A DNA stretch of 64,000 bases from sequence record PV357172.2; one strand, written 5' to 3'. Both the position numbers and the translations under genes were made by a program. The first letter of the stretch is position 1. The number at the start of each line of letters is the position of its first letter. The stretch is from a phage. The notes beneath the pieces are model-generated. The model did no database searches. It was not told the DNA's origin and was given only the letters and a program-made list of their open reading frames with translations. Below, piece after piece: positions 8,964-13,638 of the stretch.

Positions 8964-9068
8964 CCAAATTCTGTGTAGAGTTAAGTAAACCGGTAGCCAA
9001 CCAGCTATCATTGCTGACATCGAATTCAGCCACAGATACCATTTTCATTAATAACTGAGGAAATAGAT

Positions 9069-9257: not shown

Positions 9258-9839
9258 ATGCACGGAATATCCTTACCAATTCCAGGGTTTGAGGAGTACT
9301 TAGTAAGTTTGGATGGGTTAGTATTTAGTATCAAATCAAACAAAATACTAACCCCAATAACCAGTAATTACGGATACTTATCTATACGTCTCCATAAAAA
9401 TGGTCAACAGAGAAATACCGGTGTACATAGGATTTTAGCATGTGCATTTAAGAAATTACCAAGTCTAGACTCTGAACTAGAAGTTGACCATATTAACACA
9501 GACATTACTTATTGGGGTCTTAATAACTTACAAGTGCTCACAAAAGAGCAGCATCTAGAAAAGACTTTAAAAGATAAAGGATTTAGTAAACTAAACCATG
9601 ATAATTGTTGTAAGGATTGTGGTAAAGCTATTTCTTTAAAAGCTGAAAAATGTCAGGAGTGCTCTTCACATAAACCAAAAGATATCTCTATAACTAAAGA
9701 AATAATCGAGGTTACAGTAAGAGAGCTAGGCTGGTCAGGTGCAGGGAGAAAGTTAAGTTATTCAGATAATGGGTTGCGTAAAAGATACACTTCTTTAGGA
9801 GGCAATCCTAAAGAACTTAAAAAGTTAAAGGTACTATAG
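9258..9839 (+). CDS. HNH homing endonuclease
   Basis: LEVDHINTD...NNLQVLTKEQH HNH motif plus C-terminal Cys-rich region; stop codon overlaps the start of tRNA-Asp. Confidence 0.8.
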   Translation: MHGISLPIPGFEEYLVSLDGLVFSIKSNKILTPITSNYGYLSIRLHKNGQQRNTGVHRILACAFKKLPSLDSELEVDHINTDITYWGLNNLQVLTKEQHLEKTLKDKGFSKLNHDNCCKDCGKAISLKAEKCQECSSHKPKDISITKEIIEVTVRELGWSGAGRKLSYSDNGLRKRYTSLGGNPKELKKLKVL

Positions 9840-9901
9840 TCTAACGGTTAGGATACTCCCCTGTCACGGGAGAGGTAGGGTTTCGATTACCCTTAGTACC
9901 G
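9830..9901 (+). tRNA. tRNA-Asp (GTC)
   Basis: Perfect acceptor GGTACTA/TAGTACC, anticodon stem CTCCC/GGGAG, loop CTGTCAC, T-arm AGGGT-TTCGATT-ACCCT, CCA. Confidence 0.85.
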
Positions 9902-9910
9902 CCAAATTAT

Positions 9911-9984
9911 ACATCCATAGCTCAATTGGTTAGAGCTACCGCCTCTTAAGCGGTAGGTTCTAGGTTCAAGTCCTAGTGGGTGTA
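9911..9984 (+). tRNA. tRNA-Lys (CTT)
   Basis: D-stem GCTC/GAGC, anticodon stem ACCGC/GCGGT, loop CTCTTAA, T-arm CTAGG-TTCAAGT-CCTAG, CCA. Confidence 0.85.
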
Positions 9985-10114
9985 CCAAACATCAGAGCAG
10001 CGTGATGTACTGCAAAGACCCAAAGTCCGGGGTGGACTTCTTGATTCAAAGGAGCAGGCACTAATTATCATTCTAGCGTGGTGGAGAGGGGACACCAGCT
10101 TGCCGAGGGTAGAA

Positions 10115-10191
10115 GCTCGTTCGATTCGAGTGAAAGAATGGTTCTCGTAAATCCGCACAAGTGATAGCAGGTTCAAGTCCTGCCTAGATTG
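10115..10191 (+). other. two tRNA-like T-arm elements without canonical acceptor stems
   Basis: GCTCG-TTCGATT-CGAGT and GCAGG-TTCAAGT-CCTGC; no complementary 5' acceptor found. Confidence 0.2.
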
Positions 10192-10200
10192 ACTTATTAT

Positions 10201-10271
10201 GCGTTCGTAGTTAAAAGGTATAATTTTTGGTTGCCAACCAGAAGTTGAGGGTTCGATTCCCTCCGACCGCA
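10201..10271 (+). tRNA. tRNA-Gly (GCC)
   Basis: Anticodon loop TTGCCAA, T-arm GAGGG-TTCGATT-CCCTC, acceptor 6/7 paired, CCA. Confidence 0.75.
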
Positions 10272-10527
10272 CCAAATTTAGGTTTCTGCTTCCTAGAGAA
10301 CGGACTCCTAGATAAACAAGGCGATGAGTTTCCGGCCGGTTCTAGTCGCTGAAAATCCTCCCGACCAGGTAGGTGTAAGTAAATGAAAGTTTACTTATTG
10401 AGTAGGTTCCGATAGACCGGCGGGTCTATTCTGGCATTTAAGAGAGGTCTCGCAAACTTCTTTGTCAGCCGTGGGGTTGGTAGCCTCCAGGTGGCCTACA
10501 CAATAAGTAAATTTATTAAAAATTCAT

Positions 10528-10556
10528 TTGCTATTCTGCTTAATTCTCTGTATAAT
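10528..10556 (+). promoter_or_regulatory. sigma70-like early promoter
   Basis: TTGCTA 10528-10533, TATAAT 10551-10556. Confidence 0.6.
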
Positions 10557-10587
10557 ATATTTTATAAAGTGAGTTAACAAAAATTAA

Positions 10588-10660
10588 CAGTGCGTAGCGC
10601 AGTTGGTAGCGTGGGAGCCTTGGGTGCTTCGGGTCGCAGGTTCGAGTCCTGCCGCACTGA
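10588..10660 (+). tRNA. tRNA-Pro (TGG)
   Basis: Perfect acceptor CAGTGCG/CGCACTG, anticodon loop CTTGGGT, T-arm GCAGG-TTCGAGT-CCTGC, CCA. Confidence 0.85.
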
Positions 10661-10669
10661 CCAAACAAT

Positions 10670-10744
10670 TGCGGGTTAGATCTCTGGTAGAGATCGCTAG
10701 TCTCATAAGCTAGAAAGAGGTAGGTTCGATTCCTGCACCCGCTT
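10670..10744 (+). tRNA. tRNA with CAT anticodon (Met/fMet/Ile2)
   Basis: Anticodon stem CTAGT/GCTAG, loop CTCATAA, T-loop TTCGATT, 1:72 U-U mismatch, CCA. Confidence 0.75.
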
Positions 10745-10921
10745 CCATTTTAATAGAGGATTTCGAAATGAAAGTATTTCGATTAGTAGTAAGTGACAAA
10801 CGGTTAGGTAAGAATACATCAAAATCCTTACTTGCTCATTATGGTAAAAATTGGGATGAAGTAATGGCAGAGTTTAATACTAATCACCCTTACTTGAAAG
10901 TTCACTCTATTAAGGAAGTTT

Positions 10922-11395
10922 ATGCTTATTAACAGGGTGCTTCAAGCTCTAGATCTTCCAGAGCTCTTTACTATTACCGACCCCTTAATACATCGGTATA
11001 TGGAAAAGTATAATGAAATCTCTGGTAAAAAAGGGAAACTAAAATCCTCAGAATTTAAGTTCTGTTATAGAATGGCAGCATTAAACCTCTTAAAGTACAA
11101 GAGGGAGCATAAAATCCCTATAACAGAAGGATTTGTCTATGTAATAGGTAGTCCAGCATGGCCTGGACTATATAAGATAGGTATGACAGTAGATGTGAAT
11201 GAAAGACTGTCTAGTTATCAAACATATTCGCCTTATCGTGATTACAAGTTATACCATTTCAGATTCTCCTCGGACAAGAGAAGAACTGAAAAAGCATTAC
11301 ATAACCTTCTGAAGGACTACAAAGTATCAGGAGAATGGTTTGAAGTACCTCTGTTAGACGCCTTCAAACTATTAGTAGAAAATTTGGATTGCTAA
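10922..11395 (+). CDS. GIY-YIG-like (T5orf172-domain) homing endonuclease
   Basis: GFVYVIGS...YKIGMT...ERLSSY...EWFEV matches the T5orf172 pattern; stop overlaps tRNA-Lys start. Confidence 0.65.
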   Translation: MLINRVLQALDLPELFTITDPLIHRYMEKYNEISGKKGKLKSSEFKFCYRMAALNLLKYKREHKIPITEGFVYVIGSPAWPGLYKIGMTVDVNERLSSYQTYSPYRDYKLYHFRFSSDKRRTEKALHNLLKDYKVSGEWFEVPLLDAFKLLVENLDC

Positions 11396-11460
11396 CTCAA
11401 CTGGATAAGAGTACCGGACCTTTAATCCGTCAGTTCTGGGTTCGAATCCCAGGCAATCCA
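11386..11460 (+). tRNA. tRNA-Lys (TTT)
   Basis: Perfect acceptor GGATTGC/GCAATCC, D-stem ACTC/GAGT, loop CCTTTAA (unusual C33), T-arm CTGGG-TTCGAAT-CCCAG, CCA. Confidence 0.75.
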
Positions 11461-11481
11461 CCAATTTCAAGAAAAACTCAG

Positions 11482-11511
11482 TTGCTTGATGCTTAATTTC
11501 TTGTTATAATA
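11482..11511 (+). promoter_or_regulatory. sigma70-like early promoter
   Basis: TTGCTT 11482-11487, TATAAT 11506-11511. Confidence 0.55.
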
Positions 11512-11748
11512 TTTATATAAATTGATGAGGAGAAATCCTCATCATAGTTCACTAAGGTATTAGCTCGACCTAGGACTGGCTGCCAAAAAGCACGATCCCT
11601 ACGATTTGGGAGAAGTTCTAGATTAGTCCACTAGATTCAGCGGCAACTGAATAGTGTATCGGTTTTGCGAGATGACGCGGTTCCTTCCGCTCGAAGCGAA
11701 GGTGCTGTAGTTACGCCGAGCTAATAGCCTTAGTAAACTAAGGAATTT

Positions 11749-11819
11749 GGGGATATAGTTTAATGGTAGAACATCTGCTTTGCACGCAGAAGACGAGGGT
11801 TCAACTCCCTCTTTCTCCA
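11749..11819 (+). tRNA. tRNA-Ala (TGC)
   Basis: Anticodon stem TCTGC/GCAGA, loop TTTGCAC, T-arm GAGGG-TTCAACT-CCCTC, CCA. Confidence 0.75.
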
Positions 11820-11827
11820 CCAAATTT

Positions 11828-11909
11828 GGGGCTATGCTGGAACTGGTAGACAATACGGCCTTAGATTCCGTAGCTTAAATGCGTGGGAGTTCGAGTCTCC
11901 CTAGCCCCA
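11828..11909 (+). tRNA. tRNA-Leu (TAG), long variable arm
   Basis: Perfect acceptor GGGGCTA/TAGCCCC, anticodon TAG in the loop, T-arm GGGAG-TTCGAGT-CTCCC, CCA. Confidence 0.65.
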
Positions 11910-11928
11910 CCAACTTATAGGGTAATGT

Positions 11929-12513
11929 ATGCAGTTTGTACCAATAAAAGATGCACCAGGGTATTTAGTAAATGAAACAGGGGATGTGTTATCTACATTT
12001 ACTAATAAAATCTTATCAAGATATATAGTTGATGGGTACCCTGCTGTAAAATTACAGATAAATGGTAAGCAAACTTCGGTACTTATACACCGAATTATTT
12101 CTCATGTATTTGGGGACTTATATAATCTATTTGACCCTGAATTAGAAGTAGATCACAAGGATAGAGATAGGCTGAATCTATCTAAAGATAATCTTCAAGT
12201 TTTATCAAAAATAGAACATCAGAAGAAAACTAATAAAGATAATGGATGGTCTGATAGTAGAGTACCTTGCCCCTTATGTGGAAATCTAATGCTTCAGAGA
12301 TCAGTAACATGTACAAATTGTAAGCCAAAACCTACAGGAAAGTTAATAAAACCAGAATTGTCCTTAGAAGACATAACTGAAAAGGTTTTATTAATGGGGT
12401 GGGTTAAGGCAGCTAAAGATCTAGAAGTATCAGAGTCCACTTTACGTAGACGATATACTAAACTAACCGGATTAAGCCCGAAAGTATTAACAGAACAACG
12501 GAAAAGCAAATAG
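11929..12513 (+). CDS. HNH homing endonuclease
   Basis: HRIISHVFG...LEVDHKDRDRLNLSKDNLQVL HNH motif plus CxxC pairs; 3' end overlaps tRNA-Ser. Confidence 0.8.
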   Translation: MQFVPIKDAPGYLVNETGDVLSTFTNKILSRYIVDGYPAVKLQINGKQTSVLIHRIISHVFGDLYNLFDPELEVDHKDRDRLNLSKDNLQVLSKIEHQKKTNKDNGWSDSRVPCPLCGNLMLQRSVTCTNCKPKPTGKLIKPELSLEDITEKVLLMGWVKAAKDLEVSESTLRRRYTKLTGLSPKVLTEQRKSK

Positions 12514-12590
12514 ACTGGTGACTAAACCCGATTGGAAATCGGTTGAGTGGTAGCAATACCGCCTTATGGGTTCAACTCCCATCTTTTCCG
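12500..12590 (+). tRNA. tRNA-Ser (GGA), long variable arm
   Basis: Perfect acceptor GGAAAAG/CTTTTCC, anticodon loop TTGGAAA, T-arm ATGGG-TTCAACT-CCCAT, CCA. Confidence 0.7.
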
Positions 12591-12605
12591 CCAAACAATT
12601 TATAT

Positions 12606-12697
12606 GGTAGGTCAATCCAATGGCTGGCGCTGGACTCCGACTTGAAATCGGTTGATCGTAGTGATACGGTGTAAGGGTTCGATCCCCTTACCTACCT
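12606..12697 (+). tRNA. tRNA-Ser (TGA), long variable arm
   Basis: Perfect acceptor GGTAGGT/ACCTACC, anticodon loop CTTGAAA, T-arm AAGGG-TTCGATC-CCCTT, CCA. Confidence 0.7.
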
Positions 12698-12712
12698 CCA
12701 AATCTTGAAGTA

Positions 12713-12837
12713 TGCCGGAATCGGTAGACGGGGCTGCCTAAAAGGTTTATAGGGAACATCCACTCCCTGCAACATACCTCATAAAGCGGCTGAGATAAAT
12801 GGTCTATCTCGTGAAGGTTCAAGTCCTTCTGCTTCTT
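12713..12837 (+). other. tRNA-like element (type-II D-arm and a T-arm, no canonical acceptor stem)
   Basis: GGAATCGGTAGACGG D-arm-like segment and GAAGG-TTCAAGT-CCTTC T-arm separated by about 80 nt. Confidence 0.2.
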
Positions 12838-13066
12838 GATACATCTATGGCTCAAAGTGTAACGGTGCTATTTGATGCTCTTGGTAAGACTTCCCCGACA
12901 TGCGTTCGGGAGTAAGCTGCTAAGACTAGAGTAGAAGAGTTTCTGAGAGCCGCCACAATTGAAAATTCGTACTCGTCTTGAGCTGCGTGCAATAGGAGAT
13001 AACTTGATTAGTATTCTAGAACATGCTAATTGAGGATGGTTTCGCTAACCCTGCGAGTTTTCAATT

Positions 13067-13140
13067 GTGGCTATATCATAATTGGTTAATGATCCTGATT
13101 GTGAATCAGGCCTATGTGGATTCGAATTCCACTAGCCACC
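13067..13140 (+). tRNA. tRNA-His (GTG)
   Basis: Perfect acceptor GTGGCTA/TAGCCAC, anticodon stem CCTGA/TCAGG, loop TTGTGAA, T-arm GTGGA-TTCGAAT-TCCAC, CCA. Confidence 0.8.
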
Positions 13141-13168
13141 CCAAATTAACTTAAATAGGAAATAAAAT

Positions 13169-13369
13169 ATGGCTGATTTCTGCAAGCAATGCTCCCTTGA
13201 TATGTGGGGCAGAGATACTGGTGACTTATCTGGTCTGATTACAGAAGCCGAAGTCAAAGAAGGTTATAGTGCAGTTGTGATTTGTGAAGGCTGCGGTGTT
13301 ATCCGTGTAGACCACACCGGTAAGCGTTTGGAAGAACCAGTTCCAATTGCGCAAGTTCCTGTAGAATAA
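13169..13369 (+). CDS. small zinc-ribbon protein (66 aa)
   Basis: CKQC ... CEGCG Cys pairs. Confidence 0.5.
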   Translation: MADFCKQCSLDMWGRDTGDLSGLITEAEVKEGYSAVVICEGCGVIRVDHTGKRLEEPVPIAQVPVE

Positions 13370-13545: not shown

Positions 13546-13618
13546 GCGATTAAGCACACGGGTTGTGCCGCAGGCCTTCCAAGCCCCGCTGAGTAGGGTT
13601 CGATTCCCTCTAGCCGCT
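13546..13618 (+). tRNA. tRNA, anticodon uncertain (possibly Trp CCA)
   Basis: Good T-arm (TTCGATT), acceptor with one mismatch and CCA end; anticodon stem pairs poorly. Confidence 0.5.
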
Positions 13619-13638
13619 CCAACTTTAAGGAAACATTT

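What the first reader, a model, noticed from the sequence alone, without database searches (positions are those of the whole stretch)
9988..13066. Additional tRNA-like fragments and non-coding islands within the tRNA cluster
The intervals 9988-10200, 10275-10505, 11521-11748 and 12700-13066 lack ORFs yet contain T-arm motifs without matching acceptor stems, a type-II D-arm-like segment, strong hairpins, and a perfect 14-bp inverted repeat (GCCACAATTGAAAA at 12953 and TTTTCAATTGTGGC at 13058) that ends in the acceptor stem of tRNA-His. These may be decayed tRNAs, processing signals or novel small RNAs.
Basis: seen in the sequence. Interest (0 to 1): 0.45.

Follow-up and report, generated by a model that had tools for sequence, protein, structure and literature searches.

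The report
Known T5-family stable small RNAs
The four gene-free gaps in this phage's tRNA cluster hold the small stable RNAs long annotated in phages T5 and BF23: real, conserved, folded RNAs, several derived from tRNAs, whose function is still unknown.

Summary
The window is a T5-like phage, 100% identical to Escherichia phage HildyBeyeler across 12701-13066. The four intervals map onto misc_RNA features of the BF23 and T5 GenBank records:
- RNA2: 10069-10194
- RNAIV: 10400-10502
- RNA2H: 11558-11729
- RNA1: 12704-12848
- RNAI: 12849-12955
- RNAIII: 12960-13065

Those records call them 'tRNA-like' or 'stable RNA with unknown functions'.

They are not decaying pseudogenes. RNA1, RNA2, RNA2H and RNAIV each have folds that stay 98-100% paired, with 9-18 compensatory pairs. 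RNA1 and RNA2H persist across two phage subfamilies.

RNA1 (tRNA-Leu-derived) and RNA2 keep the acceptor, D and T arms, but a long arm replaces the anticodon arm. RNAIV, RNA2H and RNAIII each sit inside a 20-29 bp helix. The annotated ends of RNA2H and RNAIII leave 2-nt 3' overhangs in those helices, which is RNase III geometry. This is an inference.

Two points are not annotated in any record examined here. The RNAIII position is a slot that carries at least five alternative cassettes in different phages. Separately, 9988-10068 is an 81-nt element that is 95-100% identical in 131 of 134 phage genomes. The function of all these RNAs is untested.

The parts
9988..10068 (+). 81-nt non-coding element between tRNA-Lys(CUU) and RNA2. 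It is absent from T5 and BF23, and no RNA feature is annotated over it in the records listed.
   Evidence: Found in 134 phage records, one copy each, with 131 at 95% identity or more. 78 of these are Klebsiella phages, where the flanks are unrelated. The fold is weak (z -0.5). There is too little variation to test a structure.
10069..10194 (+). RNA2 homologue: a class-I tRNA-like RNA with acceptor stem, D arm, 4-nt variable loop and T arm. A roughly 65-nt arm containing a second T-arm-like hairpin (10115-10131) replaces the anticodon arm.
   Evidence: 91% identical to BF23 'RNA2, tRNA-like RNA with unknown functions'. The fold is 98.4-98.5% paired with 14-15 compensatory pairs, against 0-4 in slid controls.
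10275..10399 (+). Conserved array of four hairpins between tRNA-Gly(GCC) and RNAIV. Part of it is present in BF23, where it is not annotated. It is absent from T5.
   Evidence: Eight distinct homologues, with 5 of 38 pairs compensatory. The 3' arm of its last hairpin (10387-10398) is also the 5' strand of the RNAIV helix.
10387..10514 (+). RNAIV together with its enclosing helix. The arms are 10387-10406 and 10495-10514, and pairing continues inward.
   Evidence: 20-nt inverted repeat at 90% complementarity. The helix is kept in T5, BF23 and Epseptimavirus variants even where the inner stem differs.
10400..10502 (+). RNAIV homologue: a closing stem plus three hairpins, with the conserved loop GUCUCGCAAAC.
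   Evidence: 95-97% identical to BF23 and T5 'RNAIV, stable RNA with unknown functions'. The fold is 98.4% paired with 9 compensatory pairs, against 0-6 in slid controls.
10509..10583 (+). Early promoter P13a. It ends the upstream transcription unit and starts the unit containing tRNA-Pro.
   Evidence: 97% identical to the BF23 'promoter P13a' feature. A sigma-70-type match of 10 of 12 lies at 10528-10556.
11463..11536 (+). Early promoter P13b, which drives RNA2H and the downstream tRNAs and RNAs.
   Evidence: 92% identical to the BF23 'promoter P13b' feature.
11545..11740 (+). RNA2H with its roughly 22-bp closing helix (11545-11567 pairs with 11717-11740).
   Evidence: 22 pairs at 98.9% paired, 5 of them compensatory. 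Inverted repeat I3.
11558..11729 (+). RNA2H homologue: a 172-nt multi-branch RNA. One hairpin is replaced wholesale between clades, with pairing kept.
   Evidence: 97-98% identical to BF23 and T5 'RNA 2H'. 60 pairs at 98.3% paired, 18 compensatory. Found in 427 phage records and in Pectobacterium phage DU_PP_V. The annotated ends leave a 2-nt 3' overhang in the helix (derived).
12704..12848 (+). RNA1 homologue: a class-II tRNA-Leu-like cloverleaf. A 59-nt arm replaces the anticodon arm and is capped by the nearly invariant GGAACAUCCACUCC (12753-12766). No CCA end is encoded.
   Evidence: 85.5% identical to BF23 and T5 'RNA1, tRNA-like'. 38 pairs at 99.8% paired, 14 compensatory against 1-4 in slid controls. 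Rfam tRNA model 25.2 bits, below 29. The RNA1 model's next-best hit is tRNA-Leu(UAG) at 35.8 bits.
12849..12955 (+). RNAI homologue: a rod-like RNA with terminal stem GGCUC/GAGCC followed by GCCA, resembling a tRNA 3' end.
   Evidence: 91.6% identical to BF23 and T5 'RNAI, stable RNA'. Both ends are conserved, the centre is replaced between clades, and 5 pairs are compensatory. The DU_PP_V homologue changes the terminal stem with pairing kept.
12952..13071 (+). 20-bp helix (12952-12971 pairs with 13052-13071) formed by the RNAI 3' tail and the tRNA-His 5' end.
   Evidence: A helix of 14-21 bp (two segments of 12 and 7 bp in the 134-nt variant) is kept around every alternative cassette. In DU_PP_V it is kept with a compensatory change, CAAUUG to CAAGUG/CACUUG.
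12960..13065 (+). RNAIII homologue: one allele of a variable cassette, with a cloverleaf-like plan of helix plus three hairpins.
   Evidence: 100% identical to BF23 and T5 'RNAIII'. 96-100% identical in every locus that carries it, so there is no covariation information. MFE z-score -2.85. The annotated ends leave a 2-nt 3' overhang in the helix (derived).
13066..13143 (+). tRNA-His. Its 5' strand forms part of the RNAIII helix.

Best explanation
**Identity.** The four intervals encode the T5-family small stable RNAs RNA2, RNAIV, RNA2H, RNA1, RNAI and RNAIII. They also hold two further conserved non-coding modules, at 9988-10068 and 10275-10399.

**Shown here.**
- Homology and shared gene order with the annotated BF23 and T5 RNAs.
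- Folds maintained by compensatory substitutions.
- No conserved reading frame.

**Inferred: how they are made.**
- They are transcribed with the tRNAs from the early sigma-70 promoters, P13a and P13b among others.
- Host RNA-processing enzymes then cut them out, by two routes.
  - The tRNA-shaped RNAs (RNA1, RNA2, and RNAI with its GCCA end) would be handled like tRNAs, by RNase P and 3' trimming.
  - RNAIV, RNA2H and RNAIII each sit at the tip of a 20-29 bp double-stranded helix. RNase III would cut that helix with its usual 2-nt stagger.
- Because this helix uses the 5' strand of the tRNA-His acceptor stem, cutting it should also free tRNA-His to fold.

**Inferred more weakly: what they do.** The released RNAs are stable accessory RNAs that act in trans. 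The tRNA-shaped ones keep the parts of a tRNA that proteins recognise without reading the anticodon (acceptor, elbow, T arm). This makes them plausible decoys or adaptors for host tRNA-binding factors. The region has been described as an anti-defence island.

**My estimates.**
- Identity: 0.97
- Selected structured RNAs: 0.9
- RNase P and RNase III maturation: 0.6
- Trans-acting decoy or anti-defence role: 0.3
For: **Identity.**
- BLAST of the BF23 and T5 misc_RNA features onto the window gives 85-100% identity in the same order.
- The whole region matches about 600 T5-like phage records.

**Selection for structure.**

| RNA | Cells paired | Compensatory pairs | Slid controls |
|---|---|---|---|
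| RNA1 | 99.8% | 14 | 1-4 |
| RNA2H | 98.3% | 18 | 1-7 |
| RNA2 | 98.4% | 15 | 0-4 |
| RNAIV | 98.4% | 9 | 0-6 |

- RNAI has conserved ends and a replaced centre with 5 compensatory pairs.
- RNA1 and RNA2H are kept in Pectobacterium phage DU_PP_V (subfamily Mccorquodalevirinae). RNA1 is also kept in Klebsiella phage Sugarland.

**tRNA ancestry.**

**Helices.**
- The only three long inverted repeats found in 9900-13200 bracket RNAIV, RNAIII and RNA2H.
- The annotated ends of RNA2H (11558 and 11729) and RNAIII (12960 and 13065) each give a 2-nt 3' overhang. RNAIV gives 1 nt.
- The helix persists around five unrelated cassettes, and in DU_PP_V with a compensatory change.

**Not coding.** No frame is open in all homologues, and indels are not multiples of three.

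**Context.**
- The T5 tRNA region is called an anti-defence island, and tRNA-Tyr from the T5-like phage SP15 counters a retron (bioRxiv 10.1101/2023.03.15.532788).
- T4 carries analogous RNAs, RNAC and RNAD, at the end of its tRNA cluster. Their roles are unknown.
Against: **Processing model.**
- No expression or end-mapping data were available here. The RNA ends come from GenBank annotation, and I could not read the primary papers behind them.
- The RNAIV overhang is 1 nt, not 2.
- The 3' end of RNAIII coincides with the expected RNase P site of tRNA-His, so RNase P alone could explain that end.

**Function.**
- Nothing tested here speaks to function.
- No complementarity to E. coli 16S, 23S, 5S, tmRNA, M1, 6S or 4.5S RNA exceeds shuffled controls.
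- There is no E. coli homologue.
- Anticodon nucleases recognise anticodon loops, which these RNAs lack.
- Cassettes and inner hairpins are freely swapped between clades. This fits an undemanding, purely cis role as well as it fits an arms race.
Confidence: 0.7

Rival explanations
1. They are purely cis-acting processing scaffolds. The folds exist only to space, order and protect the maturation of neighbouring tRNAs and small mRNAs in long precursors. The excised pieces are inert by-products that persist because they are tightly folded.
For: - Every element abuts a tRNA, a promoter or another element.
- The ends coincide with the predicted RNase P and RNase III sites.
- Cassette content and inner hairpins are replaced wholesale between clades while the helices are kept.
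- T5 lacks tRNA-Gly(GCC) and 10275-10399 without any obvious replacement.
Against: - The sequence constraint goes well beyond what a helix needs. The RNA1 apical loop is nearly invariant across two subfamilies (31 of 32 sequences).
- RNAIII is 96-100% identical where neighbouring RNA1 is 83-99%.
- Each alternative cassette family is at least 95% identical across 15-65 genomes.
- The 81-nt element is 95-100% identical across genera and in a different flanking context.
Confidence: 0.3
2. They are decaying tRNA pseudogenes and junk spacers.
For: - T-arm and D-arm remnants are present.
- ARAGORN at a relaxed threshold calls 10067-10139 a weak tRNA-Ala.
- Two similar 3' acceptor-like segments in RNA2 suggest it arose by partial duplication.
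Against: - Compensatory substitutions maintain all the main helices.
- The elements are conserved across subfamilies.
- They are annotated as stable RNAs in T5 and BF23.
- The local tRNA-like fold of the RNA2 5' half is not kept in L029 or L017, whereas the global fold is.
Confidence: 0.04
3. The inverted repeat marks a miniature transposable element (MITE), with RNAIII as a mobile DNA insertion bounded by terminal inverted repeats.
For: - 18-20 bp terminal inverted repeats flank a roughly 106-bp segment.
- The segment is present or absent, or replaced, at one site.
- RNAIII is nearly identical wherever it occurs.
Against: - There is one copy per genome in 500 records (503 places).
- The outer 10 bp of the 'repeat' belong to RNAI and tRNA-His, and they remain when other cassettes occupy the site.
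- There is no target-site duplication.
- No copies occur in E. coli genomes.
Confidence: 0.03
4. RNA1 is a functional tRNA carrying a short intron, or the islands encode small peptides.
For:
- Several phage records annotate 'hypothetical protein' over these stretches.
Against: - The bases at the would-be anticodon differ among relatives: CUAAAA, CUAAAG, CGAAUA and CUAACG.
- The conserved part is the tip of the 'intron', not the anticodon.
- No CCA end is encoded, and the would-be discriminator base is U.
- No reading frame is open in all homologues. Lengths differ by 1, 7 and 23-26 nt.
- Pfam finds nothing for the local ORFs.
Confidence: 0.03

Closest known systems
Phage T5 and BF23 stable RNAs RNA1, RNA2, RNA2H, RNAI, RNAIII and RNAIV (misc_RNA features of GenBank AJ604530 and AY692264)
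   Same: Same genes. They are 85-100% identical, in the same order, next to the same tRNAs and the same promoters P13a and P13b.
   Different: - This phage carries tRNA-Lys(CUU) plus the 81-nt element upstream of RNA2.
- It has tRNA-Gly(GCC) and 10275-10399, as BF23 partly does and T5 does not.
- It lacks the small ORF (trn 2.14 / T5p061) found between tRNA-Ser and RNA1 in T5 and BF23.
Phage T4 RNAC (species 1) and RNAD (species 2)
   Same: - They are small stable RNAs of 139 and 119 nt at the end of a phage tRNA cluster.
- Species 1 has a T arm (CCGGGUUCGAAUCCCGG) and terminal pairing.
- Their roles are unknown after decades.
   Different: - No sequence similarity to the T5-family RNAs beyond the T-loop.
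- Different phage family.
- No enclosing long helices were examined for T4.
Non-tRNA tRNA mimics: the tmRNA tRNA-like domain, bacterial YrlA (Y RNA-like), viral 3' tRNA-like structures, mascRNA
   Same: The logic is the same: keep the acceptor, T arm and elbow, and replace the anticodon arm with another module. I compare these from general knowledge.
   Different: No Rfam family of these kinds matches. ARAGORN's tmRNA mode finds nothing. RNA1 and RNA2 have no encoded CCA end.
RNase III processing stalks of rRNA operons and T7 early RNAs
   Same: A long, roughly 20 bp or more helix is formed by sequences flanking the mature RNA. The ends are offset by 2 nt.
   Different: The enclosed RNAs here are only 100-170 nt. 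Cleavage by RNase III has not been shown for them.

Membership tests
T5/BF23 stable RNA set (GenBank misc_RNA RNA1, RNA2, RNA2H, RNAI, RNAIII, RNAIV) | Sequence homology to the annotated RNAs over their full length | tested here: met
   85.5-100% identity over the full length (RNAIV from its third base) for all six.
T5/BF23 stable RNA set (GenBank misc_RNA RNA1, RNA2, RNA2H, RNAI, RNAIII, RNAIV) | Same position relative to the tRNA genes and promoters P13a and P13b | tested here: met
   The order is RNA2, tRNA-Gly, RNAIV, P13a ... P13b, RNA2H, tRNA-Ala ... tRNA-Ser, RNA1, RNAI, RNAIII, tRNA-His, as in BF23.
T5/BF23 stable RNA set (GenBank misc_RNA RNA1, RNA2, RNA2H, RNAI, RNAIII, RNAIV) | Accumulation as discrete stable RNAs in infected cells | not testable with these tools
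   Rests on the depositors' annotation ('stable RNA with unknown functions').
Canonical tRNA (Rfam RF00005) | Score at or above the gathering threshold of 29 bits, or detection by ARAGORN in default mode | tested here: not met
   No default ARAGORN call in the intervals. RNA1 scores 25.2 bits only in a permissive rescan. RNA2, RNAI, RNAIII, RNAIV and RNA2H get nothing.
Canonical tRNA (Rfam RF00005) | Seven-base anticodon loop with a conserved anticodon | tested here: not met
   RNA1 and RNA2 carry arms of 59 and about 65 nt there. The bases at the would-be anticodon vary among relatives.
Canonical tRNA (Rfam RF00005) | Acceptor stem, D arm with GG, and T arm with a UUCRANY loop | tested here: met
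   Present in RNA1 and RNA2 and kept by covariation.
Intron-containing tRNA | A conserved anticodon and exon junctions, with the insert less conserved than the exons | tested here: not met
   The tip of the insert (GGAACAUCCACUCC) is the most conserved part, and the junction bases vary.
RNase III substrate | A roughly 20 bp or longer, nearly continuous double helix | tested here: met
   RNAIII helix 20 bp, RNA2H about 22 bp, RNAIV 20 bp plus an inner stem.
RNase III substrate | Product ends offset by a 2-nt 3' overhang | tested here: inconclusive
   Met for RNA2H and RNAIII using the annotated ends. RNAIV gives 1 nt. The ends were not measured here.
RNase III substrate | Cleavage that depends on the rnc gene | not testable with these tools
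   Needs an rnc mutant host.
RNase P substrate of the non-tRNA type (such as the 4.5S RNA precursor) | Stacked terminal helix with a 3' RCCA tail, and U at position -1 | tested here: inconclusive
   RNAI has GGCUC/GAGCC followed by GCCA, with U at 12848 just before its 5' end. No cleavage data.
MITE or other small mobile element | Multiple dispersed copies and target-site duplications | tested here: not met
   503 places in 500 records. None in E. coli genomes. The outer repeat belongs to the flanking genes.
Phage T4 RNAC and RNAD | Sequence homology | tested here: not met
   Only T-loop-sized matches of 13 nt or so (15 nt at most). They are the same kind of element by position only.

The most novel reading that the evidence does not exclude
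The helix just upstream of tRNA-His may be a dedicated expression-and-excision socket. T5-like phages would swap alternative structured RNA cassettes into it.

At least five discrete families occupy it, of 29, 64, 107 (RNAIII), 122 and 134 nt. The four surveyed are at least 95% identical within themselves. The 29-nt cassette was seen in one genome only. Pectobacterium phage DU_PP_V carries a diverged relative.

Together with the 81-nt element, which is nearly identical across genera and sits in different flanks, these cassettes would form an exchangeable repertoire of trans-acting RNAs. Such RNAs could, for example, counter host defences or retarget host tRNA-binding factors. On this reading they are not inert spacers.
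Probability: 0.15. Interest if true: 0.7.

Novelty: already known. Interest (0 to 1): 0.33.

Why it matters
What phage tRNA clusters do is being actively studied again. T5 tRNAs have been reported to counter tRNA-cleaving defences. The small stable RNAs in the same clusters remain unexplained, as T4 RNAC and RNAD still are.

This analysis does not solve their function. It does provide four things:
- Covariation-supported structures for RNAs that have no Rfam family.
- A concrete, testable maturation model based on RNase P-type and RNase III-type routes.
- A swappable cassette site.
- An unannotated element that is nearly identical in 131 of 134 phage genomes and would repay experiments.

There is also a practical benefit. 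Many phage records annotate 'hypothetical proteins' over these RNAs, and those annotations should be removed.

Tried and rejected
1. **Rfam.** I scanned the whole cluster at E-values up to 10 and then ran three permissive rescans. Nothing appeared beyond tRNAs and chance hits.
2. **tmRNA.** ARAGORN's tmRNA mode found none.
3. **RNA1 outside T5-like phages.** A pattern scan of 185,579 genomes gave one hit, in a Chlorobium MAG. It has no tRNA-like fold and is chance. IMG/VR returned only T5-like genomes.
4. **Host homologue.** BLAST of 12701-13066 against 5,426 E. coli genomes found no match.
5. **Antisense targets.** I compared the eight RNAs with E. coli 16S, 23S, 5S, tmRNA, M1, 6S and 4.5S RNA. 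Nothing exceeded shuffled controls. An 11-nt RNAI match to the end of the tmRNA tag lies in a non-conserved part of RNAI, and 17 of 300 shuffles did as well. A first version of this script timed out.
6. **Homology to T4 RNAC and RNAD.** None.
7. **The RNAalifold inner helix of RNA2** (alignment columns 44-60 with 65-78). I rejected it in favour of a T-arm-like hairpin. That hairpin has one counted compensatory pair (L070) and is also intact in L029 with a different stem sequence, though one column out of register in the alignment.
8. **Alignment of the cassette families.** MAFFT was not decisive. Only shared helix and loop motifs link them: UUCGCUA in RNAIII and the 134-nt cassette, CUGAUCA in the 122-nt and DU_PP_V cassettes, and the AUAA linker.
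9. **Literature.** Searches found no functional study of the T5 RNAs.

Full report
**What the window is.**
The region is the tRNA cluster of a T5-like phage (family Demerecviridae).
- Megablast of 9800-13200 matches about 600 T5-like records.
- 12701-13066 is 100% identical to Escherichia phage HildyBeyeler.
- ARAGORN finds 19 tRNAs in the window, all on the + strand and none inside the four intervals.
- Rfam finds only tRNAs.

**Checking the observation.**
- T-arm motifs at 10115-10131, 10167-10183 and 12813-12829.
- A class-II D arm near 12713-12732.
- The inverted repeat at 12952-12965 and 13058-13071, which ends in tRNA-His.

The repeat scan reports it as 18 nt at 94% complementarity. It reaches 20 bp once G-U pairs are counted. 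Mechanical ORFs do exist in the intervals, but none is conserved.

**What the intervals are.** The BF23 tRNA-region record (AJ604530) and the T5 st0 record (AY692264) annotate six misc_RNAs here. RNA1 and RNA2 are labelled 'tRNA-like RNA with unknown functions'. RNAI, RNAIII, RNAIV and RNA 2H are labelled 'stable RNA with unknown functions'. BLAST places them in the window as follows:

| RNA | Window coordinates | Identity |
|---|---|---|
| RNA2 | 10069-10194 | 90-91% |
| RNAIV | 10400-10502 | 95-97% |
| RNA2H | 11558-11729 | 97-98% |
| RNA1 | 12704-12848 | 85.5% |
| RNAI | 12849-12955 | 91.6% |
| RNAIII | 12960-13065 | 100% |

Promoters P13a (10509-10583) and P13b (11463-11536) lie in their BF23 positions. 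The core of the finding is therefore already known. Two stretches are not covered by those annotations: 9988-10068 and 10275-10399.

**Are they selected structures or decay?**
I collected homologues from 28 IMG/VR loci and eight GenBank phages. These span Tequintavirus, Epseptimavirus, Klebsiella phage Sugarland and Pectobacterium phage DU_PP_V of the subfamily Mccorquodalevirinae. I then folded alignments of the distinct sequences. Against slid-partner controls the results were:

| RNA | Cells paired | Compensatory pairs | Slid controls |
|---|---|---|---|
| RNA1 | 99.8% | 14 of 38 | 1-4 |
| RNA2H | 98.3% | 18 of 60 | 1-7 |
| RNA2 | 98.4% | 15 of 39 | 0-4 |
| RNAIV | 98.4% | 9 of 36 | 0-6 |

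- RNAI keeps both ends while its centre is replaced between clades, with 5 compensatory pairs.
- RNAIII is 96-100% identical wherever it occurs, so covariation cannot be assessed. Its MFE z-score is -2.85.
- No reading frame is open across the homologues, and indels are not multiples of three.

These are maintained RNAs, not pseudogenes.

**Anatomy of the tRNA-like RNAs.**
*RNA1* is a class-II cloverleaf with these parts:
- A 6-bp acceptor stem.
- A tRNA-Leu-type D arm (GCCGGAAUCGGUAGACGG).
- A 6-bp variable arm.
- A T arm (GAAGG-UUCAAGU-CCUUC).
- In place of the anticodon arm, a 59-nt arm of 6, 3 and 5 bp. It ends in GGAACAUCCACUCC, which is the same in 31 of the 32 distinct sequences, with one base different in the other.

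Three tools support the tRNA ancestry of RNA1:
- ARAGORN with introns allowed reads it as a tRNA with a 41-nt insert.
- The Rfam tRNA model aligns end to end at 25.2 bits, below the 29-bit threshold.
- A covariance model built from RNA1 picks the phage's tRNA-Leu(UAG) as its next-best hit, at 35.8 bits.

RNA1 is not an intron-containing tRNA. The bases at the would-be anticodon vary among relatives, and no CCA end is encoded.

*RNA2* is a class-I scaffold. It has an acceptor stem, D arm, 4-nt variable loop and T arm (GCAGG-UUCAAGU-CCUGC). A roughly 65-nt arm holding a second T-arm-like hairpin stands in for the anticodon arm.

*RNAI* ends in GGCUC/GAGCC followed by GCCA, like a tRNA 3' end.

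**Anatomy of the 'stable' RNAs: three helices.**
The only three long inverted repeats found in 9900-13200 bracket RNAIV (10387-10406 with 10495-10514), RNAIII (12952-12969 with 13054-13071) and RNA2H (11558-11572 with 11712-11726). Including wobble pairs, the helices are 20-29 bp long.
- Placing the annotated ends on them gives a 2-nt 3' overhang for RNA2H. Position 11558 pairs with 11726/11727, and the RNA ends at 11729.
- RNAIII also gives 2 nt. Position 12960 pairs with 13063, and the RNA ends at 13065.
- RNAIV gives 1 nt.

This is RNase III geometry. It is an inference from annotated ends, not a measurement. The RNAIII helix is built from the RNAI 3' tail (GCCACAAUUG) and the tRNA-His 5' end (CAAUUGUGGC). 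In the precursor it therefore competes with the tRNA-His acceptor stem.

**A cassette slot.**
Between the conserved flanks ...GCCGCCACAAUUG and CAAUUGUGGCUA..., different phages carry unrelated inserts of 29, 64, 107 (RNAIII), 122 and 134 nt.
- Each insert is closed by a 14-21 bp helix, or by two segments of 12 and 7 bp in the 134-nt variant.
- DU_PP_V has a roughly 115-nt insert, and its helix carries a compensatory change (CAAGUG/CACUUG).
- Each family occurs once per genome.
- The three alternative families surveyed are at least 95% identical within themselves.

In the phage collection the families are distributed as follows:

| Cassette | Records |
|---|---|
| RNAIII (107 nt) | about 267 |
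| 64 nt | 65 |
| 122 nt | 55 |
| 134 nt | 15 |

The larger cassettes (RNAIII, DU_PP_V, and apparently the 122- and 134-nt ones) share a cloverleaf-like plan and short motifs. The single copy per genome, and the fact that the outer repeat belongs to the flanking genes, argue against a MITE.

**The two unannotated stretches.**
*10275-10399* is a conserved array of four hairpins.

*9988-10068* is more striking:
- It occurs in 134 phage records, one copy each, and 131 of them are 95-100% identical.
- 78 are Klebsiella phages, where both flanks are unrelated.
- It is absent from T5 and BF23.
- Its predicted fold is weak (z -0.5).
- The short ORF across it is not preserved in Sugarland.

I cannot explain its near-invariance. 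Recent horizontal spread, or constraint on the sequence itself rather than on a fold, are the options.

**Mechanism.**
- *Shown:* identity, selection for structure, tRNA ancestry of RNA1 and RNA2, and the enclosing helices.
- *Inferred:* co-transcription with the tRNAs from early promoters, release by RNase P-type and RNase III-type cuts, and accumulation as stable RNAs.
- *Function:* not known, either here or in the literature I could search.

My preferred reading is that these are trans-acting accessory RNAs, with the tRNA-shaped ones acting as decoys or adaptors for host tRNA-binding factors. Two things favour it. The sequence constraint exceeds what a helix needs. The region is also described as an anti-defence island. 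I put this at only about 0.3.

The main rival is a purely cis-acting processing scaffold, also at about 0.3. Tests for antisense targets in host stable RNAs and for host homologues were negative.

**Comparison and verdict.**
The closest known entities are the T5 and BF23 RNAs themselves, and membership is met. Phage T4 RNAC and RNAD are the same kind of element by position but are not homologous, and their roles are equally unknown.

The finding is real and not an artefact, but it is already known. The modest added value is:
- The covariation-supported structures.
- The maturation model.
- The cassette slot.
- The 81-nt element.

Noticed in passing
window 12606-12700 and 13546-13621: ARAGORN in default mode misses two real tRNAs, tRNA-Ser(UGA) and tRNA-Gly(UCC). 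Both are annotated in BF23 and T5. They are recovered at a relaxed ARAGORN threshold, and Rfam matches them only weakly through the tRNA-Sec model (37.6 and 23.3 bits).
   Followed up: partly
window 8969-9041: Homologue (98.6% identical) of BF23 'RNA3', a third 'tRNA-like RNA with unknown functions'. It is 73 nt, ends in ACCA, and has an MFE z-score of -3.0. It lies outside the finding.
   Followed up: partly
window 13066-13067: The base before G1 of tRNA-His is U, not the usual G at position -1. The BF23 record nevertheless starts the tRNA at that U, giving 78 nt. The predicted staggered cut in the RNAIII helix falls exactly there, so RNase III rather than RNase P might set this 5' end.
   Followed up: partly
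window 9258-9839, 10922-11395, 11929-12513: Three ORFs of homing-endonuclease type are interleaved with the tRNAs and RNAs: NUMOD4 with weak HNH, T5orf172/MUG113, and HNH. They may drive the mosaic presence and absence of neighbouring modules.
   Followed up: partly
window 10375-10398 versus 10503-10514: GUAAGUAAA at 10375 and AUAAGUAAAUUU at 10503 are both complementary to 10387-10398. A local hairpin and the long RNAIV helix are therefore mutually exclusive alternatives.
   Followed up: no
window 11523-11544: A 9-bp hairpin (GAUGAGGAGAAAUCCUCAUC) sits just after the P13b promoter, ahead of the RNA2H helix. The scan flags it as terminator-like on the - strand.
   Followed up: no
L036:3215-3335 (IMG/VR contig 3300033149_000793): An unrelated metagenomic phage contig carries a tRNA-Leu-like scaffold that ARAGORN does not call. 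It scores 24.2 bits with the RNA1 model, has a Leu-type D arm, and has an odd anticodon region.
   Followed up: no
window 9911-9987 and 11386-11463: The phage carries two tRNA-Lys genes, CUU and UUU. The CUU copy is absent from the T5 and BF23 stretches examined, and in this window the 81-nt element follows it directly. A T5-encoded tRNA has been reported to neutralise the PARIS defence (PMC11464382, listed; not read).
   Followed up: no
GenBank records of many T5-like phages (for example MZ501072 bas26_0126, MT074463 gmork_122): 'Hypothetical protein' CDS features are annotated over RNA1, RNAI and the 81-nt element. These are probably false gene calls.
   Followed up: partly
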